Assembly (NCBI RefSeq): GCF_001457595.1
Contig: NZ_LN831039.1
Location: forward strand, 3,510,001 to 3,542,000
Direction of reading: 5' to 3'
DNA from: Mycolicibacterium smegmatis
GTDB taxonomy: Bacteria; Actinomycetota; Actinomycetes; Mycobacteriales; Mycobacteriaceae
DNA: 32,000 nucleotides
Shown here: piece after piece, positions 8,642-31,483 of the stretch
Position numbering within the stretch: the first letter of the stretch is position 1
Layout of the letters: the number at the start of each line of letters is the position of its first letter
Position numbers and translations under genes: made by a program
Notes under the pieces: model-generated
What the model saw: the letters and a program-made list of their open reading frames with translations, nothing else
What the model was told of the DNA's origin: nothing
The model's database searches: none

Positions 8642-9978
8642 CCGATCACCTCCTGCGATCGAACACTGTTGCGGTGAGCCAGCACCCAGACGGACAGACC
8701 TGTGAGAACGCATCCTGCCATCATGTAGAGAGCCACACTCGGCCAGCCGAAACTCGACAGCAGCGCGGTGGCCGTCATCGGTGCGAATGCACCTCCGATC
8801 ACCGCGCCGCTCTGAATACCCAGCGAGACACCCGAGTACCGGACTTCGGTGGAGAAGGTCTCGGCGAAGAATGCCGGCTGTACTCCGTACATCAGGCTGT
8901 GGAGCACGCCCAGTCCGACCACCATCGCCACGGTGATGAACCAGAACTGCCCGGTCTGGACGAGCATCCAGAAGGGAAGGGCGAACACCGCCAGCCCGAA
9001 CGCTCCACACAGGTACACCCGGGACCGCCCGATCCGGTCCGACACCGCACCGGCCAGTGGCAGCGCCAGCACCTGCCCGGTGGATCCGATGAGAACAGCG
9101 GCCAGCATGGTGCTCTGTGACAGGCCGAGAGTGCTGGTCCCGTAGGAGATCACGAATGTGATGAACAAGTAGTAGGTCAGATTGATTCCGATGTAGCTTC
9201 CGGCGGTCAGTGCCACCTCGGCCGGGTAGGTGCGAAGCACCGTCCAGACGGGTGAGCGCGTCTTTGTGACCACGACGGGCGCAGACTGTCGGAGTTCTTG
9301 CAGTCGCCGGAAGGACGGGGTGTCCTCGAGTTTGACGTGAACGTACAGGGCCAGACCGACCAGGATGAGACTCATCAGGAACGGGAGGCGCCAGGCCCAT
9401 TCAATGAGTGCCTCGGCGGAAACGCAGGCTGTCAACAGCAGGAAGATCACGTTGGCCAGCAGCACGCCGCCGGGGGCGCCCAGTGATGAGAAGCTGCCGT
9501 AGAACCCCCGTCGGCGGGGTGGTGCGGCTTCGACGGCCAGCAGCACCACTCCCCCCATCTGCCCGCCGATGGCGATGCCCTGCACGAACCTCAGCACGGT
9601 GAGTGCTACGGGTGCGAGAACGCCCACGGAGGCGTAGGTCGGCAGGACACCGATGGCGGTTGAGGCGATGCCCATGGCGATCAGGGCGATCACCAGTGTC
9701 TTCTTCCTGCCGATGAGGTCACCGAAGTGTCCGAACACCACGCCTCCCAGAGGTCGGGCCAAGAACCCGATCCCAAAGGTGCCGAACGACAGCAGAACTC
9801 CTGTGACAGAGCTCATCTCGGGGAAGAAGACGGCCGGGAAGACCAGCGCGGCCGCCAAACCGTAGATGAAGAAGTCGTAATACTCGATGCTCGCGGCGGT
9901 GGCCGCGATCGCGGCCACCCGGGTGACGTCGCGGTCGAGCACGTCGATCTCGTCGAGGTGCTGTTTCGGTGAAGTCAC
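8638..9978 (-). CDS. MFS transporter, metabolite:H+ symporter (MHS) family
   Basis: IEYYDFFIYGLAAALVFPAVFF is the MHS signature, with about 12 hydrophobic segments. My preferred start is GTG 9978, 7 nt after the ALDH stop. The alternative ATG 10077 would overlap the ALDH gene by 92 nt. Confidence 0.8.
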   Translation of the reverse strand: MTSPKQHLDEIDVLDRDVTRVAAIAATAASIEYYDFFIYGLAAALVFPAVFFPEMSSVTGVLLSFGTFGIGFLARPLGGVVFGHFGDLIGRKKTLVIALIAMGIASTAIGVLPTYASVGVLAPVALTVLRFVQGIAIGGQMGGVVLLAVEAAPPRRRGFYGSFSSLGAPGGVLLANVIFLLLTACVSAEALIEWAWRLPFLMSLILVGLALYVHVKLEDTPSFRRLQELRQSAPVVVTKTRSPVWTVLRTYPAEVALTAGSYIGINLTYYLFITFVISYGTSTLGLSQSTMLAAVLIGSTGQVLALPLAGAVSDRIGRSRVYLCGAFGLAVFALPFWMLVQTGQFWFITVAMVVGLGVLHSLMYGVQPAFFAETFSTEVRYSGVSLGIQSGAVIGGAFAPMTATALLSSFGWPSVALYMMAGCVLTGLSVWVLAHRNSVRSQEVIG

Positions 9979-15392: not shown

Positions 15393-16625
15393 TTGACAGG
15401 CAACACAACAGACTTCAGCTGTCCGGCGGTGGCGCCGGGTGCCCTGGACGGCGTCACCGTCCTGGACCTGACAACGGTGGTGATGGGCCCGTTCGCCACC
15501 TCGATGCTCGGTGACCTCGGGGCTGAGGTCATCAAGGTCGAGGCGCTCGACGGTGACATCACACGGCGCATGGGCCCGCAGCGCAATCCCGGTATGACCG
15601 CCTTGACACTGGGTTTGCAGCGGAACAAGCGCAGCATCGCATTGGACCTCAAAACCGCTGAAGGAAAAGAGGTTCTGGCACGACTGGTGCGTGAATCCGA
15701 CGTCGTCGTCTCCAATTTGCGGCCCCAGTCACGTGAGGACCTCGGGCTCAGCTACCCGGCCCTCCGCGCGATCCGCGCGGATGTGATCCTGTGCACCGCC
15801 CAGGCCTACGCCGAGGCGAGCCCACAACGCAACGAGCCCGCCTACGACGACATGGTGCAGGCCGCATCCGGGCTGACCTCTCTGGTCGAGGCCGTCGACG
15901 GTGTTCCCCGCTACGCGCCCTATGTCATCGCGGACAAGGTGAGTGGGCTCTACATCGTGATCGCGGTGCTCAGCGCATTGATGCACCGTGCAGCGACCGG
16001 CTCCGGCCAGCACGTCGAGGTGCCCATGGTCGACGCGATGGTCCACTTCAACCTCGTGGAGCATCTCAGTGGGCAGACATTCGCACCGCCGGCCGGGGAT
16101 TTCGGCTGGAAACGGGTGCTGGTCCCGGAGCGTGCCCCCTACCGGACGTCTGACGGATACGTCTGCATCCTGCCCTACACCGACGCCAACTGGCGGGGCT
16201 TCTTCACGCTCACCGGGCTGACGGACCTCCTGACCGACCCCAGGTTCACCGACGTCGACAAGCGACATCAGAACATGGGTTACCTCCACTCCATGATCAG
16301 CCGGATCACGCCGCAGCGCTCAACACAGGAATGGCTGGATCTGTGCCGGGACAACGACATTCCTGCTGCGCGTCCCCTCGACCTGACCCGTGTCACCGAA
16401 GACTCGTACGTGATGGATCACGGTGTGCTGCAGCGAAACAGTCATCCCACCGAGGGTGATTACTTCAGCGCCCTGACGCCCCTGCGGATGAGCGGGTCGC
16501 CTGTGAGCCTTCGCCGCCATGCCCCCATATTGGGTGCCCACACCGCAGAGGTGTTGTCCGAGCTGGGGTACACCGACGACGAGATCACCAGCCTGTCCGA
16601 CAACGCAGTGGTGGTGATCAAATGA
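15393..16625 (+). CDS. Family III CoA-transferase (CaiB/BaiF/Frc type)
   Basis: Blocks are LDGVTVLDLTTVVMGPFATSMLGDLGAEVIKVE, QRNKRSIALDLK and NLRP. The start is uncertain: TTG 15393 sits very close to GAGGA, and GTG 15429 is an alternative. Confidence 0.85.
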   Translation: MTGNTTDFSCPAVAPGALDGVTVLDLTTVVMGPFATSMLGDLGAEVIKVEALDGDITRRMGPQRNPGMTALTLGLQRNKRSIALDLKTAEGKEVLARLVRESDVVVSNLRPQSREDLGLSYPALRAIRADVILCTAQAYAEASPQRNEPAYDDMVQAASGLTSLVEAVDGVPRYAPYVIADKVSGLYIVIAVLSALMHRAATGSGQHVEVPMVDAMVHFNLVEHLSGQTFAPPAGDFGWKRVLVPERAPYRTSDGYVCILPYTDANWRGFFTLTGLTDLLTDPRFTDVDKRHQNMGYLHSMISRITPQRSTQEWLDLCRDNDIPAARPLDLTRVTEDSYVMDHGVLQRNSHPTEGDYFSALTPLRMSGSPVSLRRHAPILGAHTAEVLSELGYTDDEITSLSDNAVVVIK

Positions 16626-20793: not shown

Positions 20794-22125
20794 TCAGTGT
20801 CGCGCTGCCGTGTCTTCGACGCCGCACCATCGCGCGACGAAGAGCGCGATCGACTTGGTGATGCGGCGGACCGACTCGATGTCGACCCGCTCGTCGAAAC
20901 CGTGGATGTCCTTGGAGATCGGACCGTACACCAGCGCCGGGATGTTCGCGTACTGGACGAAGACCCGGCCGTCCAGGTAACCGGGGGTCGTGAAACTCTG
21001 CAGCGGGGCACCGCCGAAGGCGTCGGCGTGGCTCTCCCCCAGGATCGCCTCGGCATCCGAACCCTCCTCCAACACATAGCCTTCGGCGTAGAACCCGGTG
21101 GCCGTCGCCTCGGCCGAGACCGGGTGGCCGTTGCCGTCGTGTTCGATGGCGGCGAGTTCGGCCGTGATCTCGGACCACGCCTCGTCCGCCGTGATGCCGG
21201 GATAGAACGCGATCCTCAGATCGAGTTCGCACCACGCGGGCACGCTGGAGTTCCAGTCGCCGCCTTTGATCTTGCCGACGTTGAGGTTGATGGGGTGCTC
21301 GAGGTCCTCGAAGTGGCGGTGTTTCCCCTTCTCGGCGTTCCAGCGCTCCTCCAGCCTGCGCAACCTCTCGACCACGAAATACGCCGCGTCGATCGCGTTG
21401 AAGCCGGAACTCATCTCGCGGGGGTGGGTGGGATGCCCCGCGACCCGAACGCGGAACCAGATGGTGCCGACGTTCGCGCGGACCAGCATGTCCTCTTCGG
21501 GTTCGGGAATCAGGACGGCGTCGGCCGTGTAGCCGCGCATCAACGCCGAAAGTGAACCGTTGCCCGTGCACTCCTCCTCCACCACGGATTCGAAGTGGAT
21601 GCGGCCCAGCGGTTCCAGTCGGGCGGCGCGTAGTGCGTCGAAAGCGAACAGGTTGGCCACCAATCCGGCCTTCATGTCACCGCTACCGCGTCCGTACAGC
21701 CACCCGTCGACGACCTCGGCCTCCCACGGCGAACGCTGCCACTGGGCTTCCGGACCTTCGGGAACGACGTCGATGTGGCCGTTGAGGATCAGTGATCGAC
21801 CGAGCTCCTGACGGGGGCGGTAGGTGCCCACGACGTTGTCGACGCCCCGGTAGGAGATCTCGACCTTTCCGGCGCCGGGATGTGTCGCGAGTTGCTCGGG
21901 ATCGAGTTCCCAGCGGTCCATCTCCAGGCCGCGTCCCGACATGGCGCCGTAGAGCAGATCCTGCGCGGAAGCCTCGTCTCCGCGCAGGGACGGGTGGCGG
22001 ACCAGCTCTTGCGTGAACTTCAGCTGCCTGTCGAACTGCGCATCCACCGCGGCGAGGATCCGGTCGCGCTGCTCTGGAGTGAGTGCCGGAACGGTGGCGT
22101 GGGTCTTGGCGTGGATAGTTGTCAC
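20794..22125 (-). CDS. M20-family metallopeptidase/deacylase (ArgE/DapE/ACY1/CPG2 type)
   Basis: 443 aa. LNGHIDVVPEGPEAQWQRSPWEAEVVDGWLYGRGSGDMKAG is the M20 catalytic block. GTG start. Confidence 0.85.
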   Translation of the reverse strand: MTTIHAKTHATVPALTPEQRDRILAAVDAQFDRQLKFTQELVRHPSLRGDEASAQDLLYGAMSGRGLEMDRWELDPEQLATHPGAGKVEISYRGVDNVVGTYRPRQELGRSLILNGHIDVVPEGPEAQWQRSPWEAEVVDGWLYGRGSGDMKAGLVANLFAFDALRAARLEPLGRIHFESVVEEECTGNGSLSALMRGYTADAVLIPEPEEDMLVRANVGTIWFRVRVAGHPTHPREMSSGFNAIDAAYFVVERLRRLEERWNAEKGKHRHFEDLEHPINLNVGKIKGGDWNSSVPAWCELDLRIAFYPGITADEAWSEITAELAAIEHDGNGHPVSAEATATGFYAEGYVLEEGSDAEAILGESHADAFGGAPLQSFTTPGYLDGRVFVQYANIPALVYGPISKDIHGFDERVDIESVRRITKSIALFVARWCGVEDTAARH

Positions 22126-22181: not shown

Positions 22182-23504
22182 TCAGGAAGTCGCCGGTTGG
22201 TGCTCGACCGGGTCGTGGCGCAGTCGCATGCGTTCGCCGGCCAACCCGCCGATGGCGGTGATGGCACAGATGCCGATGAGCACCAGGGCGGCGGGCCAGG
22301 AGGCGCCGTCGCCGACCGCGAGCAGAGCCGTGGCGATCAACGGCAGGAAACCACTCAGCGCTCCAGCGAGGTTGTATCCCAGCGACACGCCGCTGTACCG
22401 CAACGCAGGCGGAAACAGCTCGGCCAGAAGCGCTCCCGTCACTGCGTAGGCCAGCGTGATCAAGGCGATACCGCACGCGACTGCCGCAGTGATGGCCCAG
22501 GCGTTGCGGGTGTCGATCAGCCAGAACAGGGGGAATGCCGCAACTGCGGTCGTCACCGCCCCGGCGACGGTCATCCGGCCGGGGCCGAACCTCTCAGAGA
22601 GGCGCCCGGCGAAGATGGTCACCGCGATCTGCAGTACCGCGGCCACCAGCGTCGCGTTCACCATCACCTGACGGTCGACCGCCAGCACGTTACTGCCGTA
22701 ACTGACGACGAACGTCGTCATGATGTAGAAGCCACCCACGCCGAGCAACGCGGCCGCCACGGCAACCAGAAGCCGGCCACCGGCGTTGCGCACGAGCTGG
22801 AGTACGGGCACCTCGGCCGCGGCTTCCAGCTCGGCGAGACGCTTGAACACCGGCGACTCCTCCATCGTCAGCCGGATCCACAGCGCCACGCCGAGCAGCG
22901 GGAACGCGGCCAGGAATGGCAGTCGCCAGCCCCACGAATCGAACGACTCCGATGGCAGCATGAGCACCAGGGCGAACGCCCCGGACGAGACCAGAGTGCC
23001 GACAGGCGAGCCGATCTGAACCAGCGCGGCGAACCGACCGCGTTGCTTGATCGGTGAGTGTTCGATGGCCATGGTGGTGGCACCGCCCCACTCGCCGCCG
23101 ACGGCGAGACCCTGTACCAGACGCAGTATCGCGAGCATGGCCGGAGCGGCGATCCCGACGGCGGCATAGTCGGGCAGAACGCCCACCAGCCCTGTCGCAC
23201 AACCGATCATGATGATGGTCGCCAACAGCGCCGGTCGCCTCCCGTACCGGTCGCCGATGTAACCGAAGATGACCGCGCCTATCGGCCGCGCGGCGAAGCC
23301 GACGCCGAAGGTTGCGAACGACGCCAACGTCGCGGCCGCAGGGTCCAGGTCGGTGAAGAACAGCCTGTTGAACACCAGCGCTGCCGCTGTGCCGAACAGG
23401 AAGTAGTCGTACCACTCGAGCGCTGTGCCGACGAACGCCGCAAACGCGATGCGTCTGGCGTCGCTGCCGGAAAGCTCCACCGCTTCATCGGTGACACGAT
23501 TCAT
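22182..23504 (-). CDS. MFS transporter, MHS family (paralogue of 8638-9978)
   Basis: I start at ATG 23504, giving MNRVTDEAVE. LEWYDYFLFGTAAALVFNRLFF is the MHS signature, with about 12 TM segments. Confidence 0.8.
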   Translation of the reverse strand: MNRVTDEAVELSGSDARRIAFAAFVGTALEWYDYFLFGTAAALVFNRLFFTDLDPAAATLASFATFGVGFAARPIGAVIFGYIGDRYGRRPALLATIIMIGCATGLVGVLPDYAAVGIAAPAMLAILRLVQGLAVGGEWGGATTMAIEHSPIKQRGRFAALVQIGSPVGTLVSSGAFALVLMLPSESFDSWGWRLPFLAAFPLLGVALWIRLTMEESPVFKRLAELEAAAEVPVLQLVRNAGGRLLVAVAAALLGVGGFYIMTTFVVSYGSNVLAVDRQVMVNATLVAAVLQIAVTIFAGRLSERFGPGRMTVAGAVTTAVAAFPLFWLIDTRNAWAITAAVACGIALITLAYAVTGALLAELFPPALRYSGVSLGYNLAGALSGFLPLIATALLAVGDGASWPAALVLIGICAITAIGGLAGERMRLRHDPVEHQPATS

Positions 23505-23572
23505 GCCTTCCAGTCTGTTAGCGGATACTCCAACCCACAATCGCAGGGCTCCTAAGAATCGGCCGCTAGAGT

Positions 23573-24712
23573 GTGCAGATGCACAACCGGCTGGAGGGCG
23601 AGGGTCTGCCCGGGGTGACCGCCTGCCTCGCGGATCTCGAGACCATCGCCACTGCTTACGTCCGGCAGGTCCGCACCCTCACCGGCTATGCGAACTCGGT
23701 GGTCAGCGATGACGACCTGCACCAGACCGCCCGCACAACGCTGCGACTGCTGTTCGAGATGATCAAGGGCGAGGACCGATTGGCAGAACTGCAGGAGTAC
23801 TCCGAGAACATCGGCCGCCGCCGCGCACGCCAGCAGGTTCCGCTCGAGTCACTCCTGCGCGCGGTACGAATGGATTTCCCCTTCATCTGGGAGGCGCTGT
23901 CGGCACACACCGCGGGCGGCGCGTCGGCCATCTCGGACTCTGTCGTGTGGATCTGGAACGCCGTCGAACGACACACCACCAACGTGCAGACCGGCTACCT
24001 CGACGAAATATCGAGGGTGAACGCCGAACTCGAACTGGAGCGCAACTTCCTGCTCCGGCAACTGCTCAGTGAGGGCAGCCGAGACCCACAGCTCCATCGG
24101 CAGGCGGCCGCCGCACTCGGTCTGCCTGCCGACGGCGAATTCGTCGTGGTCGTGTCAGGGGACCAGTACCCCAACGAATTCGCACGGTCGATCGCCCACT
24201 GCGCCCCTCGGTCACCGGTACTACAGCTCGAAGGTGTCGAGTTCGCCATCCTCACCGCAGACGCGTTGCAACCTGAGGCAGCGAGGGTTCTGCTCGACAT
24301 CCCGGCTGGGATCTCGCCTCCCGCGAGCGGCCTCTCCGAGATAGCCGGCATGTGGCACCTCGCGCGTGAACTGTCCGGGTGGGCTGAACCCGGCCGCGCC
24401 GCCACAGTGGCCCTGCACTGGGACAAGATCGCCGCACAGCGCCTGGGCGTCGTCGGAACAGCTTTTGTCAGACAGGCTTTGGCCCAGCTGTCGTCACTGC
24501 CTCCGCGCGATCAGACCTTGCTCACGGACACGCTGCGCATCTATCTCGACACCGGTTCCGTCACCGAGACCGCTCGCAGGCTCTACTGCCATCGCAACAC
24601 CGTCATCAACCGACTGGCCAGGGTGACCAGCAGTACCGGCCTCGACCCGGCAGTCCCTCGCGATGCGGGCGCGTTGCGACTGCTGCTGGCGGTCGACGCA
24701 GCCGCCGACTGA
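23573..24712 (+). CDS. PucR-family transcriptional regulator
   Basis: The C-terminal LLTDTLRIYLDTGSVTETARRLYCHRNTVINRLARV is a PucR-type HTH. 379 aa. The start is GTG 23573 or ATG 23579. Confidence 0.8.
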   Translation: MQMHNRLEGEGLPGVTACLADLETIATAYVRQVRTLTGYANSVVSDDDLHQTARTTLRLLFEMIKGEDRLAELQEYSENIGRRRARQQVPLESLLRAVRMDFPFIWEALSAHTAGGASAISDSVVWIWNAVERHTTNVQTGYLDEISRVNAELELERNFLLRQLLSEGSRDPQLHRQAAAALGLPADGEFVVVVSGDQYPNEFARSIAHCAPRSPVLQLEGVEFAILTADALQPEAARVLLDIPAGISPPASGLSEIAGMWHLARELSGWAEPGRAATVALHWDKIAAQRLGVVGTAFVRQALAQLSSLPPRDQTLLTDTLRIYLDTGSVTETARRLYCHRNTVINRLARVTSSTGLDPAVPRDAGALRLLLAVDAAAD

Positions 24713-24775
24713 TGACGTCACATTCTTGAAACTTCACGACAACATCTAGGTCATCGACTGCGCCGACGATCTTGG

Positions 24776-24785
24776 TGTGATCACA
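24776..24785. promoter_or_regulatory. 10-bp perfect palindrome TGTGATCACA overlapping the putative GTG start of the GntR::amidase ORF
   Basis: Read directly from the sequence. The GT...AC core fits the general GntR/FadR operator pattern. The half-site ATCACA recurs about 27 bp downstream. An alternative start is TTG 24804. Confidence 0.3.
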
Positions 24786-27002
24786 GCAGCCGGCGAAAAG
24801 CCTTTGGTATCACACAGCAAAGACTCGGCGGAGACGCCCACTCTCGCCGAGAGCGTCTACCAGCGAATCCGGCGCAACATCCTCGAAGGCCGGATCATGC
24901 CGGGCACACGGGTGTCCATTCGTTCGCTCGCCGAATCGGTCGGAGTGTCGACGATGCCGACCCGCGAGGCGCTCAAACGTCTGAGCTTCGAGGGCCTGGT
25001 CGAGTACGACCGGCGCGCGGTCACGATAAGTACGTTGTCGCCGAAGGCCATTCGCGAACTTTTCACGATCCGCCTACGGCTTGAGCTGCTCGCGACCGAA
25101 TGGGCGCTGCCTCGGCTCGACGCCGAGACGACCGTGGCGTTGCGCTCGGTTCTCGACCGGATGATTGTCCCGGGAATCAGCGCCATCACCTGGCGCGAGC
25201 TCAACCGTGAGTTCCACCAGACGTTCTGCAGCTGCGGCGACAGCCGTTACCTTCTGGAACTGATCCACAACATCTGGGATCGCATCCAGCCGTACATGGC
25301 GATCTACGCGTCGGCGATGCACGACTTCACCGAAGCCGACCGTCAGCACGAGCACATGTATCAGCTGATGCTCGCACGAGACCTCGACGGCCTTCTCGAT
25401 GCCACGACCCGGCACCTCGAGCACACCGCAGAAGCCATCGTCAGCGCACTGGGCGCCGACACAACCACCGGCAGGGGGAACAACGTGAACTACGAGGAGC
25501 TTTCGATCAGCTCTTTCCACCGACTCGTCGAATCCGGCGGGGCCACCAGCGCCGATCTCACCGCCTGGTATTTGGATCGCATCGCAACACTCGACTCCAT
25601 CGACAATCCCGACGGTCCCCAGCTCAACTCGGTCGTGACCGTCAACCCCGCAGCGCTCGACGAAGCTCGCGCGCTCGACGAAAAGTACGCACGCACGGGC
25701 ACCCTCGTCGGCCCGTTGCACGGCGTGCCGATCCTGATCAAGGACCAGGGTGAAACCAAAGGTATCCCCACGGCATTCGGATCGACCGCGTTCGCGGACT
25801 ACATCCCGGATACCGATGCCACCGTGGTCGACCGCCTGCGCAGGGCCGGCGCGGTGATCCTCGGCAAGACCGCCATGTGCGACTTCGCCGCAGGATGGTT
25901 CTCCTTCTCCTCACGCACCGACCACACAAAGAACCCGTACGACCTCGATCGTGAGACCGGAGGCTCGAGCGCGGGCACCGCTGCGGCAGTGACCGCCAAC
26001 CTCTGCCTCGTCGGCATCGGAGAGGACACCGGCGGATCGATCCGCCTGCCGTCATCGTTCACAAACCTCTTCGGGCTGCGGGTCACCACCGGGCTGGTCT
26101 CCAGAACCGGGTTCTCGCCACTGGTGCACTTCCAGGACACCCCAGGACCCATGGCGCGCAACGTATCCGACCTTGCTGCGGTGCTGGACGTCATCGTCGG
26201 CTACGACCCCACCGACTCGTACACCGCACTGGCGACCTCCGGTCCCGAAGTCGGTGACTACGGTGAGGCCCTCGACGGCGTCGACGCCGACACGCTGTCC
26301 GGTTTCCGCGTCGGGGTACTGACCGACGCATTCGGGGCCGGCGACGACCAGGAACTGACGAACAGTGTCGTGCGCGCTGCCATCGATCGCCTACGACACC
26401 ACGGAACAGGCGTGGTCGACGGCATCGTGCTCGGCAATCTCGAAACCTGGGTGGCCGAGACCTCGCTGTACACCATCCAATCCAAGTTCGACCTCGAGAA
26501 GTTCCTGGGGTCCCGCAGGCACACAGGACCGACGACGATCCGCGAAATCGTCGATCACGGAGACTTCCACCCGCTCACCGACCTGTTGGCCGACATCGCC
26601 GACGGACCGTCAAACCCCGAAGATCATCCCGAGTACTTCAAGAAGCGGACGCGCCAGGAGGATTGGCGACGCACGTTGCTCGCGAAGATGGCCGAAGCCG
26701 AGATCGACTTCCTCGTCTACCCCACCGTTCAGGTGCCTGCACCGACCCGAGCCGATCTCGCCGCGAAACGCTGGACCGCACTGAACTTCCCCACCAACAC
26801 CATCATCGCGTCGCAGACGTCGTTGCCCGCGATGAGCATTCCCGTCGGCTTCACCGACTCAGGCTTGCCGGTGGGGCTGGAAGTCGTCGGACGACCGCTC
26901 ACCGAGCGTGCGCTCCTGCGGTTCGCGCGCGCCTGGGAACTGGCCGAGGCGCCCCGCCGCCAGCCCCAGATCGAGGCATCGAAAGCGCGGGTGACGATGT
27001 GA
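24777..27002 (+). CDS. Single ORF encoding a GntR-family (FCD-type) regulator module fused in frame to an amidase-signature enzyme
   Basis: Codons 1-236 carry the GntR wHTH SIRSLAESVGVSTMPTREALKRLSFEGLV plus a helical FCD-like domain ending ...HLEHTAEAIVSAL. From codon 237 (GTG 25485) the amidase family begins: HGVPILIKDQ (Lys), GGSSAGTAAAV and GGSIRLPSS. There is no stop between the modules in the sequence as given. Confidence 0.7.
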   Translation: MITAAGEKPLVSHSKDSAETPTLAESVYQRIRRNILEGRIMPGTRVSIRSLAESVGVSTMPTREALKRLSFEGLVEYDRRAVTISTLSPKAIRELFTIRLRLELLATEWALPRLDAETTVALRSVLDRMIVPGISAITWRELNREFHQTFCSCGDSRYLLELIHNIWDRIQPYMAIYASAMHDFTEADRQHEHMYQLMLARDLDGLLDATTRHLEHTAEAIVSALGADTTTGRGNNVNYEELSISSFHRLVESGGATSADLTAWYLDRIATLDSIDNPDGPQLNSVVTVNPAALDEARALDEKYARTGTLVGPLHGVPILIKDQGETKGIPTAFGSTAFADYIPDTDATVVDRLRRAGAVILGKTAMCDFAAGWFSFSSRTDHTKNPYDLDRETGGSSAGTAAAVTANLCLVGIGEDTGGSIRLPSSFTNLFGLRVTTGLVSRTGFSPLVHFQDTPGPMARNVSDLAAVLDVIVGYDPTDSYTALATSGPEVGDYGEALDGVDADTLSGFRVGVLTDAFGAGDDQELTNSVVRAAIDRLRHHGTGVVDGIVLGNLETWVAETSLYTIQSKFDLEKFLGSRRHTGPTTIREIVDHGDFHPLTDLLADIADGPSNPEDHPEYFKKRTRQEDWRRTLLAKMAEAEIDFLVYPTVQVPAPTRADLAAKRWTALNFPTNTIIASQTSLPAMSIPVGFTDSGLPVGLEVVGRPLTERALLRFARAWELAEAPRRQPQIEASKARVTM
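25473..25487 (+). promoter_or_regulatory. Internal Shine-Dalgarno (AGGGGGAA) plus GTG at the regulator/amidase junction; contains a G5 homopolymer at 25474-25478
   Basis: The sequence is ...ACC GGC AGG GGG AAC AAC GTG AAC.... The SD ends about 5 nt before GTG 25485. Removing one G gives AGG GGA ACA ACG TGA, a stop that overlaps the GTG as GTGA. Confidence 0.5.
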
Positions 27003-27796
27003 CCGTCATCGACCTCAACGCCGACCTCGGGGAGAGCTTCGGCGTCTACACCTACGGTGCTGACGCCGAGATGATGCCGTTGATCACCTCGGCCAACATC
27101 GCCTGCGGTGGCCACGGCGGCGACCCGGCCGTCATGCGCACCAGCGTCGCGCTCGCCCACGCGCACGACGTGGCTGTCGGTGCCCACGTGGGGCTTCCGG
27201 ACCGCTTGGGGTTCGGCAGGAGAGAAATCCCGACGACCGCGCAGGAGGCGTACGACCTCTGTCTGTATCAGGTCGGTGCCCTGGACGGCTTCCTCCGCGC
27301 GCAGGGTACTGCCATGCAACATCTCAAACTGCACGGATCGCTCTACATGATGGCCAACCGGGACCGCGACCTCGCCGAAGCCGTGTGCGCTGCCGTCACC
27401 GCACTCGACCCTGCGTTGCTGATCTACGTGCTGCCAGGTTCCGCACTGCACACCACGGCCGTGGAGACCGGCCTGACGCCGGTGATCGAGATCTTCGCCG
27501 ACCGCCCGTACCGCGACGGCGTCGTCCAGATGTACGACCGCACGGCCGAACTCATCGGTGGCCCCGACCAGGTGGTCACGCGCACACTCTCACAGTTGGC
27601 GGCCATCAGCGAAACCACCGGCACCGATGTTCACCTGACCGTGTGCGTCCACAGCGACACCCCTGGCGCCCCTGCGCTACTCGCCGCGGTACGCAGCGCC
27701 CTCACCGCCGAGGGCCACACGTTCCGGTCGCCCACCGAACCGGCGTCAGCGACGACGCGAAAACCCATCCTGACCGCCGCCCTCGGCGGCGAATAG
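26999..27796 (+). CDS. LamB/YcsF-family protein (5-oxoprolinase subunit A / lactam-utilisation type)
   Basis: I start at GTG 26999, a GTGA overlap with the amidase stop. VIDLNADLGESFG and ANIACGGHGGDP are LamB/YcsF hallmarks. Confidence 0.85.
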   Translation: MTVIDLNADLGESFGVYTYGADAEMMPLITSANIACGGHGGDPAVMRTSVALAHAHDVAVGAHVGLPDRLGFGRREIPTTAQEAYDLCLYQVGALDGFLRAQGTAMQHLKLHGSLYMMANRDRDLAEAVCAAVTALDPALLIYVLPGSALHTTAVETGLTPVIEIFADRPYRDGVVQMYDRTAELIGGPDQVVTRTLSQLAAISETTGTDVHLTVCVHSDTPGAPALLAAVRSALTAEGHTFRSPTEPASATTRKPILTAALGGE

Positions 27797-27812: not shown

Positions 27813-29174
27813 ATGACAACATCCCGTCCCATCAGCGCCTCATCACACACACCGCCACGAGACGAACCACTGCACCTGGAATCGGAATTCGAAGACCAGC
27901 CGGTCCCGCAGTCACACCGGCGCTCCACGTTGTCGATCTCGGCCGTGTGGTTCGGCTTTCCCATGGTGCTCACGTGCGCCATCTTCGGCGGAACCATCGT
28001 CTACGGACTCGGTTTCTGGAAAGGCGTACTGGCGATCGTCGTCGGCAACGCCGTTCTGTTCGGCTACGTCGGCGCGCTGTCGTATCTCGCAGGCAAGACC
28101 GGCAAGAACTTCGCACTGAGCGCGGCCGAAACCTTCGGACAACACGGTTCGAAGATCGTCACCGGGTTTCTCGCCACCGTCGTGATCGGATGGTTCGCCT
28201 TCCAAACCGGGCTCACCGGAGCAACTCTCAACCTGTCCCTGGGCTGGAGCGAAACACTGATCGTGCTGATCGCCGGGCTCCTCTACATCGGGGTCACGTT
28301 CATCGGCATACGCGCGCTGACCGTCATCGGGATGATCGCCGCGCCACTGTTCATCGTGCTGGGCGTCACGGCCGTCTTCCTCGTCACCCGCGACGACGGT
28401 TGGGGCGCAATCGCCTCCTACGAAGGCGCCGGAACCGGTGCGACCGTGCTGTCGATCGGCGCCGCGGTGACCGTCGTGGTCGCCAGCTTCATCGACTCGG
28501 GCACCATGACCGCGGACTTCACCCGTTGGTCCAAAGGCGGAAAGGAAGCTGTCATCGCGGCTTTCAGCGCCTTCCCGGTCGCCAACCTCATCGCCATGCT
28601 CACCGGCGCGGTGATCGTTGCCGCAGGCGGCGCCCTCAACCCGGCCACCGACGGCGGCGACTTCCTGCCGATCCTCGTCGACCACGGCGCGATCCTGACG
28701 GTCCTCGCGGTGATTTTCGTGTTCGTCAACCTCGGATCCGTCTGCTCACACTGCCTGTACAACGGCGCCGTGGGGTGGAGTCAGCTCGTCGGCTCCAGGA
28801 TGCGCATCCTCACCCTCGTGCTGGGCGCCCTCGGATTGGCGATCGCACTGGCCGGAGTGTGGAGCCACTTCCCCACCTGGCTGAACCTCCTGGGCATCTT
28901 CGTCCCGTCGATCGGCGCCGTCGTGATCGTCGACCAGCTGCTTACGCGTCGCGCATGTTCGCGTAGGGCGGCAACGTTGCGGGCAGAGCCCTTCGCCGCC
29001 TGGATCATCGGCGCGGCCTGCGCGTACGCCACACATCACTGGGCTCCTCAGTTGAGCGAGGCCGTGGCCGGAATGGTCTGCGCCGCAGTCGCATACCTCC
29101 TGATCGACATGGTATCGGGTCGCCGGAGCTCCGCCGAGAACGCGGATTCCACGGTGAGCGAGGTGGTCGCATGA
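27813..29174 (+). CDS. Purine-cytosine permease family transporter (NCS1, CodB-like)
   Basis: 453 aa with about 12 TM segments. The N-terminal block STLSISAVWFGFPMVLTCAIFGG...GNAVLFGYVGALSYLAGKTGKNFALSAAETFG resembles cytosine permeases. Confidence 0.75.
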   Translation: MTTSRPISASSHTPPRDEPLHLESEFEDQPVPQSHRRSTLSISAVWFGFPMVLTCAIFGGTIVYGLGFWKGVLAIVVGNAVLFGYVGALSYLAGKTGKNFALSAAETFGQHGSKIVTGFLATVVIGWFAFQTGLTGATLNLSLGWSETLIVLIAGLLYIGVTFIGIRALTVIGMIAAPLFIVLGVTAVFLVTRDDGWGAIASYEGAGTGATVLSIGAAVTVVVASFIDSGTMTADFTRWSKGGKEAVIAAFSAFPVANLIAMLTGAVIVAAGGALNPATDGGDFLPILVDHGAILTVLAVIFVFVNLGSVCSHCLYNGAVGWSQLVGSRMRILTLVLGALGLAIALAGVWSHFPTWLNLLGIFVPSIGAVVIVDQLLTRRACSRRAATLRAEPFAAWIIGAACAYATHHWAPQLSEAVAGMVCAAVAYLLIDMVSGRRSSAENADSTVSEVVA

Positions 29175-30172
29175 CCGGGCTCGACGGATTGAACCCGACT
29201 CCGGGCGCACTCGTCCTGGGTCTCGTGCAGGCGCGAGTTCCGGTCATCAAAGAGCCCGGTGACCTCAAGTCGACGGCCGAACGTCTCGCGGGGATGGTCG
29301 TCGGCGCCAAGAAAGGCATGCCGTCGATCGACCTGGTGGTCATGCCCGAATACAGCATCAACGGCCTCGACCCCGACACCTGGCTCGACGACTCTCTGCT
29401 GTGCGACCGAAACGGACCGGAGATGACCCTGCTGGCCGATGCCTGTCGGGACGCCGGCGTCTGGGGATGCTTCTCGATCATGGAGCGCAATCCCGGTGGA
29501 GCACCGTGGAATTCCGGCATCATCATCGACGATCACGGTGAAGAGAGACTCTACTACCGGAAGATGCACCCGTGGGTGCCTGCCGAACCGTGGGCACCCG
29601 GCGACCTCGGCGTCCCCGTGTGCGACGGCCCTTCGGGGTCACGACTCGCGCTGATCATCTGCCACGACGGCATGCTGCCCGAGATGGCACGTGAGGCGGC
29701 ATACAAGGGCGCCAACGTGATCCTGCGCACGGCCGGCTACACCTATCCGATCCAGCACTCATGGCGGATCACCAACCAGACCAACGCCTTTCACAACTTA
29801 GCTTACACGGCGTCGGTTGCCTTAGCAGGTCCCGACCAGAACAACATCTGGTCGCAGGGCGAGGCGATGGTCTGCGATGTCGACGGCACGATCCTCGTGT
29901 CCGGAGACGGCACACCGGACCGGATCGTGACCGCCGAGGTCGTTCCCTCCCGCGCCGACGAGGCACGACGGACCTGGGGCGTGGAGAACAACATCTACCA
30001 ACTCGGCCACCGCGGATATACCGCCGTGACGGGTGGCGCCCAGGACTGCCCGTACACCTTCATGCAGGACCTGGTGGCCAGGACTTACCGGTTGCCATGG
30101 GAGGACGAGGTGCGGCACGTGGACGGCACGGGAGCGGGCTGGGGCGCGCCGGAGACCGTGCGGGCGAAGTAG
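29171..30172 (+). CDS. Carbon-nitrogen hydrolase superfamily: aliphatic amidase/formamidase (AmiE/AmiF-like)
   Basis: 333 aa with an ATGA overlap with the permease. The E-K-C triad context is VMPEYS, YYRKMHPWVP and LIICHDGMLPE. The tail GVENNIYQLGHRGYTAV..DCPYTFM is typical of AmiE/AmiF. Confidence 0.8.
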   Translation: MTGLDGLNPTPGALVLGLVQARVPVIKEPGDLKSTAERLAGMVVGAKKGMPSIDLVVMPEYSINGLDPDTWLDDSLLCDRNGPEMTLLADACRDAGVWGCFSIMERNPGGAPWNSGIIIDDHGEERLYYRKMHPWVPAEPWAPGDLGVPVCDGPSGSRLALIICHDGMLPEMAREAAYKGANVILRTAGYTYPIQHSWRITNQTNAFHNLAYTASVALAGPDQNNIWSQGEAMVCDVDGTILVSGDGTPDRIVTAEVVPSRADEARRTWGVENNIYQLGHRGYTAVTGGAQDCPYTFMQDLVARTYRLPWEDEVRHVDGTGAGWGAPETVRAK

Positions 30173-30244: not shown

Positions 30245-31483
30245 ATGACGTCGGCAGCGACTTCTCCTGCTGCTCAACCAACTCCGGTTGAGCGGTTGGA
30301 GGTGCTGTTCGATGCGTTGGCGGAGTTGACGGGTCAGCGTAATGCGATCGACGCGAAGATTGTGCAGATCGTGGCCGAGATCGATCGTGACGGGTTGTGG
30401 GGCGCCACGGGTGCCCGGTCGATTTCGGCGTTGGTGGCGTGGAAGACCGGAGCCTCGGAACGTAACGCCAAGGCGATCGCCGCGGTCGCACACCGCGCCG
30501 AGGAGTTTCCGCGGTGTGTGCAGGGTTTGGGTGAGGGGCGGCTGTCGTTGGATCAGGTCGGGGTGATCGCCGAGGGCGCAGCCGACGGATCCGATGAGCA
30601 TTACGCCGCATTGGCGTCGGTGGCCACGGTCAGCCAGTTGCGCAAAGCGATCAGCCTCGAACCCAAACCGGAACCCGAACCGAAACCTGAACCGCGGCGG
30701 TCGATCAGAACGAATCCGGGCGACGGGTACACGACGTACCACATCACGTTGCCGCGGTCGGAGGCGGCGAAGTTCGACACCGCGCTGGAGGCCAGCCACG
30801 AGGGGTTGATCGCCCGGTGGGAACGTGAGCAGGATCCCGGTGACCCGGCGGTGCCTATGCCCGATCATGTGGATGCGTTCATGGCTCTGGTCGAGACCGG
30901 CTGGGACCGCGAGGCCACCCGGCGCCCGCACGGTCAGCACACCGCGGTGGCGGTGCACGTGGATCTGAAGAGCAAGGTGGCCGCCCTGCATCTGGGGCCG
31001 CTACTCGGCGATGACGAGCGCCGCTTGCTGACCTGTGATGCGACTTGTGAGGTGTGGTTCGAACTCCGGGGCCGGGTGATCGGCACCGGGCGGGCCACCC
31101 GCACGGTCAACCGCCGGCTGCGCCGCGCCCTGGAGCATCGCGACCGGTGTTGTGTGGTGCCCGGATGCAGCGCAACCCGCGGTCTGCACGCCCACCACCT
31201 GGTTCACTGGGAAGACGGCGGACTGACCGAGATGGCCAATCTTGTGCTGCTGTGCCCCTATCACCACCGCGCGCATCATCGGGGCCTGATCACCATCACC
31301 GGACCGGCCGATCAGCTCACCGTCACCGACGACAGAGGCCGCTTGTTGACCAACCAGTCGCTGGCCCGCACCCCCACCACGCCACCGCCGACAGTCCCAC
31401 CGTGTCCGGGCCCGCTCGGCGAACGCGCCCAATGGTGGTGGTACCAACCCTTCGGACCCCAACCACCACCGTCAGCCAACTAG
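30245..31483 (+). CDS. DUF222 / HNH-endonuclease domain protein (REP13E12-type family)
   Basis: 412 aa. The N-terminus has a DUF222-like pattern (LAELTGQRNAIDAKIVQIVAEIDRDGLW). The C-terminus CCVVPGCSATRGLHAHHLVHWEDGGLTEMANLVLLCPYHHRAHHRG is an HNH nuclease motif. Confidence 0.85.
   Translation: MTSAATSPAAQPTPVERLEVLFDALAELTGQRNAIDAKIVQIVAEIDRDGLWGATGARSISALVAWKTGASERNAKAIAAVAHRAEEFPRCVQGLGEGRLSLDQVGVIAEGAADGSDEHYAALASVATVSQLRKAISLEPKPEPEPKPEPRRSIRTNPGDGYTTYHITLPRSEAAKFDTALEASHEGLIARWEREQDPGDPAVPMPDHVDAFMALVETGWDREATRRPHGQHTAVAVHVDLKSKVAALHLGPLLGDDERRLLTCDATCEVWFELRGRVIGTGRATRTVNRRLRRALEHRDRCCVVPGCSATRGLHAHHLVHWEDGGLTEMANLVLLCPYHHRAHHRGLITITGPADQLTVTDDRGRLLTNQSLARTPTTPPPTVPPCPGPLGERAQWWWYQPFGPQPPPSAN
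30659..30694 (+). repeat. Hexanucleotide-type tandem repeat (GAACCN/AAACCN) encoding EPKPEPEPKPEP
   Basis: Read directly from the sequence: gaacccaaaccggaacccgaaccgaaacctgaaccg. It is in frame within the DUF222/HNH gene. Confidence 0.7.

What the first reader, a model, noticed from the sequence alone, without database searches (positions are those of the whole stretch)
24777..27002. GntR/FCD regulator and amidase read as one 741-codon ORF, hinged on a G5 run that is also the amidase ribosome-binding site
Seen in the sequence: a complete GntR wHTH plus FCD-like module (codons 1-236) runs without a stop into a complete amidase-signature enzyme that begins at GTG 25485. The junction reads ACC GGC AGG GGG AAC AAC GTG. 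The AGGGGGAA stretch is a good Shine-Dalgarno, ending about 5 nt before that GTG. With four Gs instead of five the regulator frame becomes AGG GGA ACA ACG TGA. That gives a stop overlapping the GTG as GTGA, which is the start/stop overlap style used by other gene pairs in this window (26999-27002, 8156-8159, 16622-16625 and others).

Three readings are possible: (a) a genuine one-component regulator-enzyme fusion, analogous in logic to the MocR GntR-aminotransferase fusions, and I know of no described FCD-amidase architecture; (b) a recent +1G mutation or homopolymer slippage that toggles between fused and separate products; (c) a homopolymer sequencing error. Under (a) or (b) the cell could make both the fusion and a free amidase from the internal start.
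Basis: partly seen in the sequence, partly recalled or inferred. Interest (0 to 1): 0.7.

Follow-up and report, generated by a model that had tools for sequence, protein, structure and literature searches.

The report
Conserved GntR regulator–amidase fusion gene
The 741-codon ORF is a genuine, evolutionarily conserved fusion of a GntR/FCD transcription regulator to an active-looking amidase (MSMEG_3400 of Mycolicibacterium smegmatis), not a G-run sequencing error or slippage switch, and it is an uncharacterised regulator-enzyme hybrid at the head of a nitrogen-scavenging operon.

Summary
ORF 24777-27002 encodes GntR wHTH + FCD + amidase-signature domains in one frame, joined at ...AGG GGG AAC AAC GTG.

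The window is M. smegmatis and the gene is MSMEG_3400. The same fusion occurs in 41 protein clusters and 18 species-representative genomes (Mycolicibacterium, Gordonia, Nocardia, Dietzia, Amycolatopsis). Their junction sequences differ and lack a G5 run, but the frame is always open. The sequencing-error and slippage-toggle readings are therefore rejected.

Kineococcus, Modestobacter, Pseudonocardia, Streptomyces and Domibacillus keep the two genes separate and adjacent, most in the same operon. NJ trees of both halves put all fusions in one clade nested among split forms, which suggests one ancient stop-loss fusion. Both halves evolve under strong purifying selection (dN/dS about 0.05-0.18). 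The catalytic triad and the FCD histidines are invariant.

A palindrome, TGTGATCACA, overlaps the annotated start in all 30 loci examined (a spaced variant in Amycolatopsis). It is the likely auto-operator, and it sits downstream of published GlnR sites.

The G-rich stretch is the fossil amidase Shine-Dalgarno. SD and GTG/ATG are co-retained in most lineages and co-lost in Nocardia, so a second, free amidase product is plausible but unproven.

The fusion was flagged as odd in 2007 but has not been characterised in the literature I could search.

The parts
24717..24754 (+). GlnR binding boxes GTCAC-n6-GAAAC-n6-ACAAC-n6-GTCAT (24717-21, 24728-32, 24739-43, 24750-54)
   Evidence: The sequence fits the published M. 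smegmatis GlnR motif Gn2AC-n6-GnAAC (PMC3662644). Published data tie GlnR to this gene: a ChIP-seq peak assigned to MSMEG3400 with 228-fold GlnR-dependent induction, and an EMSA on msmeg_3400 upstream DNA (PMC4222082). The same box pattern is conserved upstream in orthologous loci. That these exact bases are the bound site is my inference.
24776..24785 (.). O1: perfect palindrome TGTGATCACA, putative operator of the GntR domain; contains the annotated GTG start (24777)
   Evidence: It is the only match in the 32-kb window. Exact GTGATCAC lies 55-74 nt upstream of the residue-22 codon in 28 of 30 fused and split loci; the two Amycolatopsis loci carry the spaced variant GTGATC-N3-GATCAC at 126 nt. 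Only 44 GTGATCAC occur in the 526 kb of all 30 loci. Binding was not tested.
24804..24814 (.). O2: TTGGTATCACA, second operator-like site (clade consensus GTGATATCACA), centre 28 bp from the O1 centre; contains the alternative TTG start (24804) used in the 732-aa annotation
   Evidence: It is conserved at the same spacing in all fused Mycobacteriales loci. 732-aa versions occur among the cluster members.
24777..27002 (+). Fusion ORF MSMEG_3400, 741 codons plus TGA stop
   Evidence: The protein is identical to cluster member P0124 (M. smegmatis CKH92038.1) and differs at 4 residues from the 741-aa M. smegmatis variant P0121.
24843..25016 (+). GntR winged helix-turn-helix (residues 23-80)
   Evidence: Pfam PF00392, 59.7 bits. 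The GVSTMP.RE..RL core is invariant in 23 fused proteins.
25056..25421 (+). FCD effector/dimerisation domain (residues 94-215; last helix predicted to about residue 227)
   Evidence: Pfam PF07729, 74.5 bits. The closest solved structure is TM0439 (3FMS/3SXY). His147, His191 and His213 align with its histidines and are invariant in the fusions. AF2 pLDDT is 70-95 across this part.
25452..25484 (+). Inter-domain linker (about residues 226-236, GADTTTGRGNN), the translated former intergenic spacer
   Evidence: Sequence and length vary among orthologues. dN/dS is relaxed. AF2 pLDDT is below 50 for residues 227-235.
25473..25478 (+). AGGGGG: fossil, and possibly still active, Shine-Dalgarno of the amidase; includes the G5 run 25474-25478
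   Evidence: -10.3 kcal/mol against the 16S 3' end, top 0.4% of in-frame positions. Equivalent purine-rich sites are retained in 12 of 13 loci that keep GTG/ATG.
25485..25487 (+). Internal in-frame GTG (Val237), the ancestral amidase start codon
   Evidence: Several stand-alone amidase orthologues start at this aligned position (P0053 MPFEEL, P0064 MTYEEI). In fused loci the codon is GTG x9, ATG x4, ACG x3, GCG x2 and GTC x1. GTG is used in 9 of 10 Val cases against 33% background usage.
25485..26999 (+). Amidase-signature enzyme module (residues 237-741; Pfam match 281-714 = 25617-26918); catalytic Lys322 (25740-42), cis-Ser397 (25965-67), Ser421 (26037-39)
   Evidence: Pfam PF01425, 321 bits. 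K322, the G395-G396-S397-S398 motif and S421 are invariant in 31 fused and unfused sequences. The closest solved relative is peptide amidase Pam, 5AC3/1M21. It is below the GatA cut-off: TIGR00132 229 bits against 481.
26999..27796 (+). LamB/YcsF (PxpA-like) lactamase gene, MSMEG_3401; its GTG overlaps the fusion stop (GTGA)
   Evidence: PF03746, 265 bits. NF003814, 272 bits against a 226 cut-off.
27813..29174 (+). NCS1-family permease, MSMEG_3402
   Evidence: PF02133. CodB-like NF008241 scores 219 bits, below its cut-off.
29171..30172 (+). Formamidase (CN-hydrolase), MSMEG_3403; ATGA overlap with the permease
   Evidence: NF009803, 526 bits against a 406 cut-off. PF00795.

Best explanation
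This is a real, anciently fused gene: MSMEG_3400 of Mycolicibacterium smegmatis.

**Origin.** A FadR-type GntR regulator (wHTH + FCD) and the amidase-signature enzyme it regulates were adjacent genes at the head of a conserved amide/lactam nitrogen-scavenging operon (amidase, LamB/YcsF lactamase, NCS1 permease, formamidase). In an ancestor of the copies now found in Mycobacteriales and Amycolatopsis, the regulator's stop codon was lost. The short intergenic spacer, including the amidase ribosome-binding site, became an ~11-residue flexible linker. The G5 run is only the M. smegmatis spelling of that fossil Shine-Dalgarno, now coding Arg-Gly.

**How it most likely works.**
1. GlnR activates the promoter under nitrogen limitation. 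This step is shown in the literature.
2. The fusion protein, dimerised through FCD, binds the conserved palindromes O1 and O2, which overlap its own transcription/translation start, and represses the operon until an effector binds the metal-containing FCD pocket. This step is inferred.
3. The C-terminal domain is a catalytically competent amidase that releases ammonia from the imported compound. This is inferred from the intact triad.
4. Because the SD and GTG are still kept in most lineages, an in-frame internal start probably also yields free 54-kDa amidase, uncoupling enzyme dosage from regulator dosage. This is inferred, at about 0.55.
For: **The fusion is conserved.**
- 41 clusters carry PF00392+PF07729+PF01425 at 59-99% identity.
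- 18 species-representative genomes have an uninterrupted ORF.
- Junction DNA differs but is always in frame.

**Split ancestors exist.** In Kineococcus, Modestobacter, Pseudonocardia and Domibacillus the order is GntR/FCD | amidase | LamB | NCS1 | (amidase2) | formamidase, with 33-151 nt gaps between the first two genes. Streptomyces keeps the split GntR | amidase | LamB.

**A single fusion event is likely.** The fused sequences form one clade in the NJ trees of both halves, nested among split forms.

**Both halves are functional.**
- dN/dS is 0.05-0.17 for GntR-FCD and 0.10-0.18 for the amidase. The linker is relaxed.
- K322, S397 and S421 are invariant. FCD His147, His191 and His213 are invariant.
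- The three FCD histidines align with those of TM0439.

**An operator is present.** (T)GTGATCAC(A), or the spaced Amycolatopsis variant, is found at the same place in 30 of 30 loci, with a second site 28 bp away in fused Mycobacteriales.

**GlnR control is published.** There is a ChIP-seq peak with 228-fold induction (PMC3662644). EMSA, qPCR and 8-19x induction of msmeg_3400-3403 are reported in PMC4222082.

**It is not an artefact.**
- Several M. smegmatis strain variants are full length, one of them on 273 contigs.
- A metagenome contig also has G5.

**The internal start may be used.**
- SD strength is in the top 1-8% in 12 of 13 loci that keep GTG/ATG, and at background level in Nocardia, which has ACG/GCG.
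- Fisher P = 0.003, and GTG is used in 9 of 10 Val codons against 33% usage, P = 3e-4. Neither is phylogenetically corrected.
- Linker dS is low in several SD-retaining pairs.
Against: - No protein-level or DNA-binding data exist for this protein. I found no proteomics, TSS or ribosome-profiling entry for MSMEG_3400.
- The operator assignment is comparative only.
- The SD/start statistics treat related genomes as independent. A Lys/Glu/Gly/Arg-rich linker would look SD-like anyway.
- The junction mRNA is unusually unstructured in Nocardia too, so that signal does not discriminate.
- The NJ trees have no support values, and the Amycolatopsis fusions are as distant from the others as the split Kineococcus genes are. 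Two independent fusions cannot be excluded.
- The AF2 model is mediocre (pLDDT 69, pTM 0.59) and says nothing about domain-domain contacts.
- The substrate and the effector are unknown.
Confidence: 0.85

Rival explanations
1. Homopolymer sequencing or assembly error: the true sequence has G4, giving two ordinary genes overlapping by GTGA.
For: G5 is a homopolymer, and a G4 reading would give a tidy GTGA overlap like others in the window.
Against: The same fused ORF appears in several M. smegmatis strain variants, one of them on 273 contigs, and in an independent metagenome contig with G5. 18 other species have the fusion without any G5 run. No ~99%-identical stand-alone amidase cluster exists.
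Confidence: 0.01
2. Recent +1G mutation, or a phase-variable/slippage switch at the G-run that toggles between fused and separate products.
For: A one-base change in the G-run would separate the products (sequence). A +1 ribosomal shift would terminate at the TGA within GTGA.
Against: The fusion is ancient and conserved across genera with non-homopolymeric junctions. G5 is short for slippage. No G4 or G6 alleles were found among M. smegmatis cluster members or in the N{4,6} metagenome scan. The one broken copy seen (L084) is interrupted by a TAA nine codons downstream of the internal GTG, not at the purine run.
Confidence: 0.02
3. Genuine fusion but a single product. The SD-like stretch and GTG are inert fossils (or by-products of a Lys/Glu/Gly-rich linker), the two domains act independently as in the split operons, and the fusion brings no mechanistic gain.
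For: Nocardia lineages lost both SD and start codon and keep the fusion, so full-length protein suffices there. Linker residues K/E/G/R are typical of flexible linkers. The openness of the junction mRNA is the same with or without a start codon.
Against: GTG is kept in 9 of 10 Val cases against 33% usage, although synonymous sites are near saturation (dS about 0.8-1.2). A strong SD at the correct spacing is kept in Gordonia, Mycolicibacterium, Dietzia and Amycolatopsis while the other linker codons diverge. SD and start were lost together.
Confidence: 0.4
4. MocR-like logic: the amidase-fold domain is a sensor rather than an enzyme, binding the amide and controlling the wHTH, with little or no turnover.
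For: There is a precedent in GntR-aminotransferase-fold MocR regulators (my own knowledge). The architecture places an enzyme fold C-terminal to a wHTH.
Against: The protein already has a complete FCD sensor with conserved histidines. The Ser-cisSer-Lys triad and most active-site motifs are invariant and identical to those of the stand-alone enzymes. M. smegmatis, M. vaccae and Dietzia have no other amidase-signature gene in the operon to do the chemistry. Amidase dN/dS is like that of a normal enzyme.
Confidence: 0.07
5. The N-terminal GntR/FCD part is a decaying remnant, and the protein is just an amidase with a long leader.
For: Some databases annotate it only as 'amidase family protein' or GatA.
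Against: dN/dS of the GntR-FCD part is as low as or lower than that of the amidase (0.05-0.17). The HTH motif is invariant. The cognate palindromic operator is conserved upstream in fused loci.
Confidence: 0.03

Closest known systems
Split GntR/FCD regulator + amidase operons (e.g. Kineococcus aurantiacus, locus L002)
   Same: Orthologous regulator and amidase (49-54% and 64-68% identity), the same downstream LamB/YcsF-NCS1-formamidase genes, the same TGTGATCACA operator, and GlnR-box-like repeats upstream.
   Different: There are two polypeptides separated by 33-151 nt. The second operator half-site abuts the first instead of lying 28 bp away.
MocR subfamily of GntR regulators (GabR, PdxR): wHTH fused to an aminotransferase-fold domain (my own knowledge)
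   Same: A GntR wHTH is covalently joined to an enzyme-fold domain in one polypeptide, giving one-component logic.
   Different: In MocR the enzyme-fold domain replaces the effector domain and is the sensor. Here a complete FCD effector domain is retained and an apparently fully catalytic amidase-signature enzyme is appended. There is no PLP or aminotransferase domain.
Trigger enzymes / bifunctional enzyme-repressors (PutA, BirA, NadR) (my own knowledge)
   Same: One protein carries both a metabolic catalytic activity and a DNA-binding domain that controls the cognate pathway genes.
   Different: The folds differ. In those cases regulation is coupled to catalysis, and here coupling is unknown. 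This protein also has a separate ligand-binding domain.
FadR-subfamily FCD regulators with a metal site, e.g. Thermotoga maritima TM0439 (PDB 3FMS/3SXY)
   Same: It is the best solved-structure match to residues 21-218. The three histidines align.
   Different: TM0439 is a ~210-aa stand-alone regulator with no enzyme module.
Peptide amidase Pam, Stenotrophomonas maltophilia (PDB 1M21/1M22, 5AC3)
   Same: It is the closest solved amidase-signature enzyme over the full amidase module (E about 1e-63 to 1e-65).
   Different: It is a stand-alone enzyme. Similarity is only moderate, so substrate specificity cannot be transferred.
In-frame internal translation initiation giving two isoforms (IF2 alpha/beta, CheA-L/S, ClpB) (my own knowledge)
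   Same: An SD and start codon inside an ORF, in frame, could yield a shorter C-terminal product alongside the full-length one.
   Different: Here the internal start is the relic of a formerly separate gene, and its use is only inferred from conservation.

Membership tests
GntR family, FadR/FCD subfamily | N-terminal GntR-type winged HTH (PF00392) | tested here: met
   Residues 23-80, 59.7 bits against a cut-off of 27. The motif is invariant in 23 fused proteins.
GntR family, FadR/FCD subfamily | All-helical FCD effector domain (PF07729) with conserved metal-binding histidines | tested here: met
   Residues 94-215, 74.5 bits. His147, His191 and His213 are invariant and aligned with TM0439 histidines. 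The AF2 model is helical with pLDDT 70-95. Metal binding itself was not tested.
GntR family, FadR/FCD subfamily | Binds a palindromic operator near its own or target promoter | tested here: inconclusive
   A conserved palindrome, TGTGATCACA, lies at the gene's 5' end in 30 of 30 loci, counting the spaced Amycolatopsis variant.
Amidase signature (AS) family | PF01425 domain with the GGSS motif and the Ser-cisSer-Lys triad | tested here: met
   321 bits. K322, G395-G396-S397-S398 and S421 are invariant across 31 fused and unfused sequences.
Amidase signature (AS) family | Amide hydrolase activity | not testable with these tools
   An enzyme assay is needed. The substrate is unknown.
GatA (Glu-tRNA(Gln) amidotransferase subunit A), the database annotation of MSMEG_3400 | Score above the TIGR00132 equivalog cut-off | tested here: not met
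   229 bits against a cut-off of 481. The gene context is a catabolic operon. The GatA name is a mis-annotation.
MocR-type GntR regulators | C-terminal fold-type-I aminotransferase (PLP) domain as the effector domain | tested here: not met
   There is no aminotransferase domain. The architecture is GntR+FCD+Amidase.
Phase-variable or slippage-controlled homopolymer switch | Homopolymer tract conserved, or length-polymorphic between strains or reads | tested here: not met
   No G5 run in 18 orthologues. No G4/G6 alleles in cluster members or in the N{4,6} metagenome scan.
Trigger enzyme (enzyme that also regulates transcription) | The same polypeptide has catalytic and DNA-binding regulatory activity, with regulation responsive to the enzyme's substrate | not testable with these tools
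   The architecture and selection on both halves are compatible. Functional coupling is untested.
GlnR regulon (M. smegmatis) | GlnR binding upstream and GlnR-dependent induction under nitrogen limitation | tested here: met
   Published ChIP-seq peak 27 with 228-fold induction (PMC3662644). Published EMSA and qPCR (PMC4222082). Motif-like boxes at 24717-24754.

The most novel reading that the evidence does not exclude
MSMEG_3400 is a dual-output gene kept that way by selection. The full-length protein is a 'self-feeding' regulator: its tethered amidase produces, next to the metal-containing FCD pocket, the carboxylate that acts as inducer, so the operon senses flux rather than substrate concentration. 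The retained internal SD+GTG supplies bulk free amidase. The shift of the second operator to 28 bp in the fused clade would then be an adaptation to the bulkier repressor.
Probability: 0.2. Interest if true: 0.65.

Novelty: new variant of a known kind. Interest (0 to 1): 0.45.

Why it matters
It settles that a long-standing annotation oddity in the model mycobacterium is a real, selected regulator-enzyme hybrid. MSMEG_3400 has been called 'GatA', and it was discarded from the 2007 GntR census for its size.

The system offers a natural experiment. Fused and split versions of the same regulator/enzyme pair share the same operon and the same operator, and some lineages have kept the internal start while others have lost it. 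That makes testable what a cell gains by tethering a transcription factor to the enzyme it controls, and whether relic start sites inside fusion genes stay in use.

It also corrects the annotation and defines a candidate operator and regulatory layout (GlnR activation plus local GntR control) for an uncharacterised nitrogen-scavenging operon. The family is narrow and the substrate unknown, so the impact is that of a specialist curiosity rather than a field-changing finding.

Tried and rejected
- **G-run as hinge, error or slippage site.** Rejected by the orthologue junctions, the strain variants and a metagenome scan allowing 4-6 bases at the run.
- **P0042 (502-aa amidase, 79% identity) as an unfused close relative.** Rejected: the gene starts 18 nt from a contig end and the upstream frame is open (TPREKT-M), so it is a truncated fusion.
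- **P0284 (227-aa GntR/FCD, 83% identity) as a split close relative.** Rejected: it is a fused gene with a single in-frame TAA nine codons after the internal GTG, on a 1.8-kb metagenome contig.
- **Structure prediction to look for a fixed FCD-amidase interface.** The model was too weak (pLDDT 69, pTM 0.59, amidase core below 50 in places) to say more than 'linker is low-confidence'. No fold search was run.
- **Local mRNA openness at the junction as evidence for an active start.** The junction is open in all fused loci, including those without a start codon, so the test is uninformative.
- **TSS and ribosome-profiling supplements.** Martini 2019 and Shell 2015 have no MSMEG_3400 entry.
- **Literature on GntR-amidase fusions, trigger enzymes, or the LamB/YcsF-amidase-formamidase operon.** Nothing beyond the transcriptome papers. 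One query failed on syntax.
- **Other GntR-FCD-amidase families.** Among 1.84 billion representatives, only one full-length representative (P0014) is in the top 150.
- **Word-index search with the regulator half.** It returned only 9 hits and missed the fusions, so it is uninformative about other FCD-enzyme fusions.
- **Substrate identity.** It could not be deduced from the domain content.


Full report
**1. The observation**

The window has a single 741-codon ORF at 24777-27002 (+), starting with GTG. Pfam finds three domains above their curated cut-offs: GntR at residues 23-80, FCD at 94-215, and Amidase at 281-714. The junction reads ACC GGC AGG GGG AAC AAC GTG, with the G5 run at 25474-25478 and the GTG at 25485.

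Deleting one G does give AGG GGA ACA ACG TGA. The purine-rich stretch pairs with the 16S 3' end at -10.3 kcal/mol, stronger than 99.6% of in-frame positions of the same ORF.

**2. Identity of the locus**

The protein is identical to cluster member P0124 (CKH92038.1, Mycolicibacterium smegmatis). It differs at four residues from P0121 (accessions include AFP39784.1), a 741-aa M. smegmatis variant. ABK70029.1 is the 732-aa version that starts at TTG 24804. [quoted passage not shown] That name fails its own model: TIGR00132 scores 229 bits against a cut-off of 481.

**3. Is the fusion real?**

Yes. A search of 5.8 billion protein clusters returns 41 clusters of 698-822 aa with the same three Pfam domains. 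They are 59-99% identical to the query and come from M. smegmatis, M. goodii, M. vaccae, Gordonia, Nocardia and Amycolatopsis.

A scan of one genome per species fetched the DNA. In 18 genomes, including Dietzia, the regulator frame runs without a stop to the amidase stop. The junction codons differ widely: AAG GGG AAA AGC, CAG GAG AAG AAC, AAG GAG CAC CAC, GAA GGG GAC CAC GCC, ATC GAA GCC ACG and others. None has a G5 run, yet the frame is always preserved.

Within M. smegmatis, several strain variants differing by 4-5 residues are full length, and one of them is seen on 273 contigs. A metagenome scan that allowed 4-6 bases at the run found one contig, and it has G5. No ~505-aa stand-alone amidase at ~99% identity exists in the protein collection.

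Two apparent 'split' close relatives proved to be artefacts. P0042 is cut by a contig end with the upstream frame open. P0284 carries one in-frame TAA nine codons after the internal GTG, on a short metagenome contig. The sequencing-error and recent-mutation/slippage readings are therefore rejected.

**4. Origin**

In five Kineococcus genomes (six loci) and in Modestobacter, Pseudonocardia, Streptomyces and Domibacillus, an orthologous GntR/FCD gene lies directly upstream of the orthologous amidase. The gap is 33-151 nt and contains a normal SD. In most of these, the same genes follow: LamB/YcsF, NCS1 permease, often a second amidase, and formamidase. A third arrangement, GntR | NCS1 | amidase | LamB, occurs in Paenibacillus, Microbacterium, Saccharopolyspora and Ktedonobacteria.

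Several stand-alone amidases begin at the residue aligned with Val237 of the fusion, for example MPFEEL and MTYEEI. NJ trees of the two halves are congruent. They place all fusions in one clade nested among split forms (no support values).

The simplest history is one stop-loss event that turned the regulator's C-terminal tail plus the intergenic spacer, SD included, into a linker. The TGA arises only because a conserved Asn codon (AAC/AAT) follows V/M237.

**5. Are both halves functional?**

- **Selection.** Pairwise Nei-Gojobori dN/dS among fused orthologues is 0.05-0.17 for the GntR-FCD part and 0.10-0.18 for the amidase. The 12-codon linker is relaxed at 0.07-3.5, on few sites.
- **Catalytic residues.** The amidase-signature triad (Lys322, cis-Ser397 in GGSS, Ser421 in GGSIR) is invariant across 31 fused and unfused sequences.
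- **Regulator residues.** The HTH core and FCD His147, His191 and His213 are invariant in the fusions. The histidines align with those of the FCD regulator TM0439.
- **Closest solved amidase.** Peptide amidase Pam.
- **Structure model.** An AF2 model from the 23-sequence alignment is only moderate (pLDDT 69, pTM 0.59). The regulator half is confident and residues 227-235 are below 50, consistent with a flexible tether, and nothing more can be said.

**6. Regulatory anatomy (new here)**

Upstream regions of all 30 loci with an adjacent or fused regulator were compared. Twenty-eight carry the palindrome (T)GTGATCAC(A) 55-74 nt before the codon for residue 22. The two Amycolatopsis loci carry GTGATC-N3-GATCAC at 126 nt. 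Only 44 GTGATCAC occur in the 526 kb of those loci.

In the window this is O1, at 24776-24785, and it contains the annotated GTG start. A second site, O2, has the clade consensus GTGATATCACA. In the window it is TTGGTATCACA at 24804-24814, and it contains the alternative TTG start. O2 lies 28 bp from O1, centre to centre, in all fused Mycobacteriales. In split loci the extra half-site abuts O1 (GTGATCACACATCAC). Conservation of the operator in fused loci is independent evidence that the DNA-binding half still works.

Upstream of O1 lie GTCAC-n6-GAAAC-n6-ACAAC-n6-GTCAT (24717-24754). These fit the published GlnR motif and are conserved in the orthologous loci.

The literature shows three things for this gene:
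- A GlnR ChIP-seq peak at MSMEG3400 with 228-fold GlnR-dependent induction (PMC3662644).
- EMSA binding and qPCR confirmation (PMC4222082).
- 8-19-fold induction of msmeg_3400-3403 on nitrogen starvation.

**7. The internal start**

The codon aligned with GTG 25485 is GTG in 9 fused loci, ATG in 4, ACG in 3, GCG in 2 and GTC in 1.

- Where GTG/ATG is kept, the SD-like site 6-9 nt upstream is in the top 1-8% of in-frame positions in 12 of 13 loci. In the five Nocardia loci with ACG/GCG it is at background level, 0.23-0.81. The association gives Fisher P = 0.003.
- GTG is used for 9 of 10 Val codons at this site, against 33% GTG usage in these ORFs (P = 3e-4).
- Linker dS is well below flanking dS in several SD-retaining pairs, though the site counts are tiny.

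These statistics ignore shared ancestry, and a K/E/G/R-rich linker is purine-rich anyway. Reduced mRNA structure at the junction is seen with or without a start codon. I rate continued use of the internal start in M. smegmatis at about 0.55. Nocardia shows that the full-length protein alone can suffice.

**8. Mechanism proposed**

- **Shown:** GlnR-dependent activation under nitrogen limitation.
- **Inferred:** the fusion dimerises through FCD and binds O1/O2 over its own start, repressing the operon until an effector occupies the metal-containing FCD pocket. The C-terminal domain hydrolyses an amide of an imported compound. Together with the LamB-type lactamase and the formamidase, this releases ammonia.
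- **Speculative:** the tether lets the regulator sense the amidase's carboxylate product locally.

The substrate is unknown, and no paper on this operon's chemistry was found.

**9. Comparison with what is known**

In logic the gene resembles one-component regulator-enzyme hybrids: MocR/GabR/PdxR, PutA, BirA and NadR (from my own knowledge). It is not a MocR, because it has no aminotransferase domain and its FCD domain is retained. By domain tests it is a member of the FadR/FCD subfamily and of the amidase-signature family.

The architecture is visible in databases. [quoted passage not shown] I found no study of it. Among 1.84 billion 50%-identity representatives, only one full-length match (P0014) appears in the top 150, so the family is narrow.

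**10. Verdict**

This is a new variant of a known kind. It is a specialist-level curiosity with a clean natural experiment attached: fused versus split orthologues, and the internal start kept versus lost.

Noticed in passing
window 24776-24785 and 24804-24814: Both candidate start codons of the fusion lie inside the two operator-like palindromes: GTG 24777 gives 741 aa and TTG 24804 gives 732 aa. In Nocardia and several Gordonia the start is an ATG/GTG immediately after O2, and the O1 GTG is out of frame. The 'MIT...' N-terminus may therefore be an annotation artefact or a leaderless start.
   Followed up: partly
window 24717-24754: Four GlnR-type boxes (GTCAC-n6-GAAAC-n6-ACAAC-n6-GTCAT) start 5 nt after the stop of the upstream PucR-type gene. 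The same pattern is conserved in fused and split orthologous loci, from Mycolicibacterium to Kineococcus.
   Followed up: partly
loci L007, L009, L010, L014, L017 (Nocardia): The five Nocardia fused loci that lost the internal SD and start codon also lack the LamB/YcsF gene. The permease follows the fusion directly.
   Followed up: no
window 29174-29171 region, compared with L002, L005-L010 and others: Most orthologous operons have a second, distantly related (~30% identity) amidase-signature gene between the NCS1 permease and the formamidase. M. smegmatis, M. vaccae, Dietzia and Gordonia hankookensis lack it.
   Followed up: no
L084:1051-1140 (JGI metagenome contig Ga0105238_10238931): A close fused homologue (83% identity in the regulator half) has an in-frame TAA nine codons after the internal GTG (…VNYEELSIN*FHRLIE…). 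The reading frame continues unchanged afterwards. It is either a nonsense mutation/pseudogene or a sequencing error.
   Followed up: partly
window 23573-24712 (+), 22182-23540 (-), 20794-22125 (-): Immediately upstream is a separate unit: a PucR-type HTH regulator divergent from an MFS transporter and an M20 peptidase. The peptidase is probably msmeg_3397 (by gene order; my inference), which is listed as an acetylornithine deacetylase mildly induced under nitrogen limitation in PMC4617892.
   Followed up: no
window 30245-31483 (+): A DUF222 + HNH endonuclease gene, of the mycobacterial 13E12-repeat type, sits directly after the formamidase. It possibly marks a mobile or variable boundary of the operon.
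   Followed up: no
window 8156-9400 (-): A 414-aa ORF with an ATGA overlap to the next gene has no Pfam match at E<=1e-4.
   Followed up: no
fused loci, NJ trees: The gene tree is incongruent with taxonomy. Gordonia sequences fall in three separate subclades, Nocardia nests inside Gordonia, and Mycolicibacterium groups with G. namibiensis/alkanivorans. This suggests horizontal transfer of the whole operon within Mycobacteriales.
   Followed up: no
L019, L020 (Amycolatopsis): In the Amycolatopsis fusions the operator is a single extended palindrome, TGTGATC-N3-GATCACA (GTGA-N7-TCAC, the same spacing as the outer half-sites in split loci). It lies 126 nt upstream of residue 22 instead of ~63 nt. 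The linker is two residues longer. This is compatible with an independent fusion event.
   Followed up: partly
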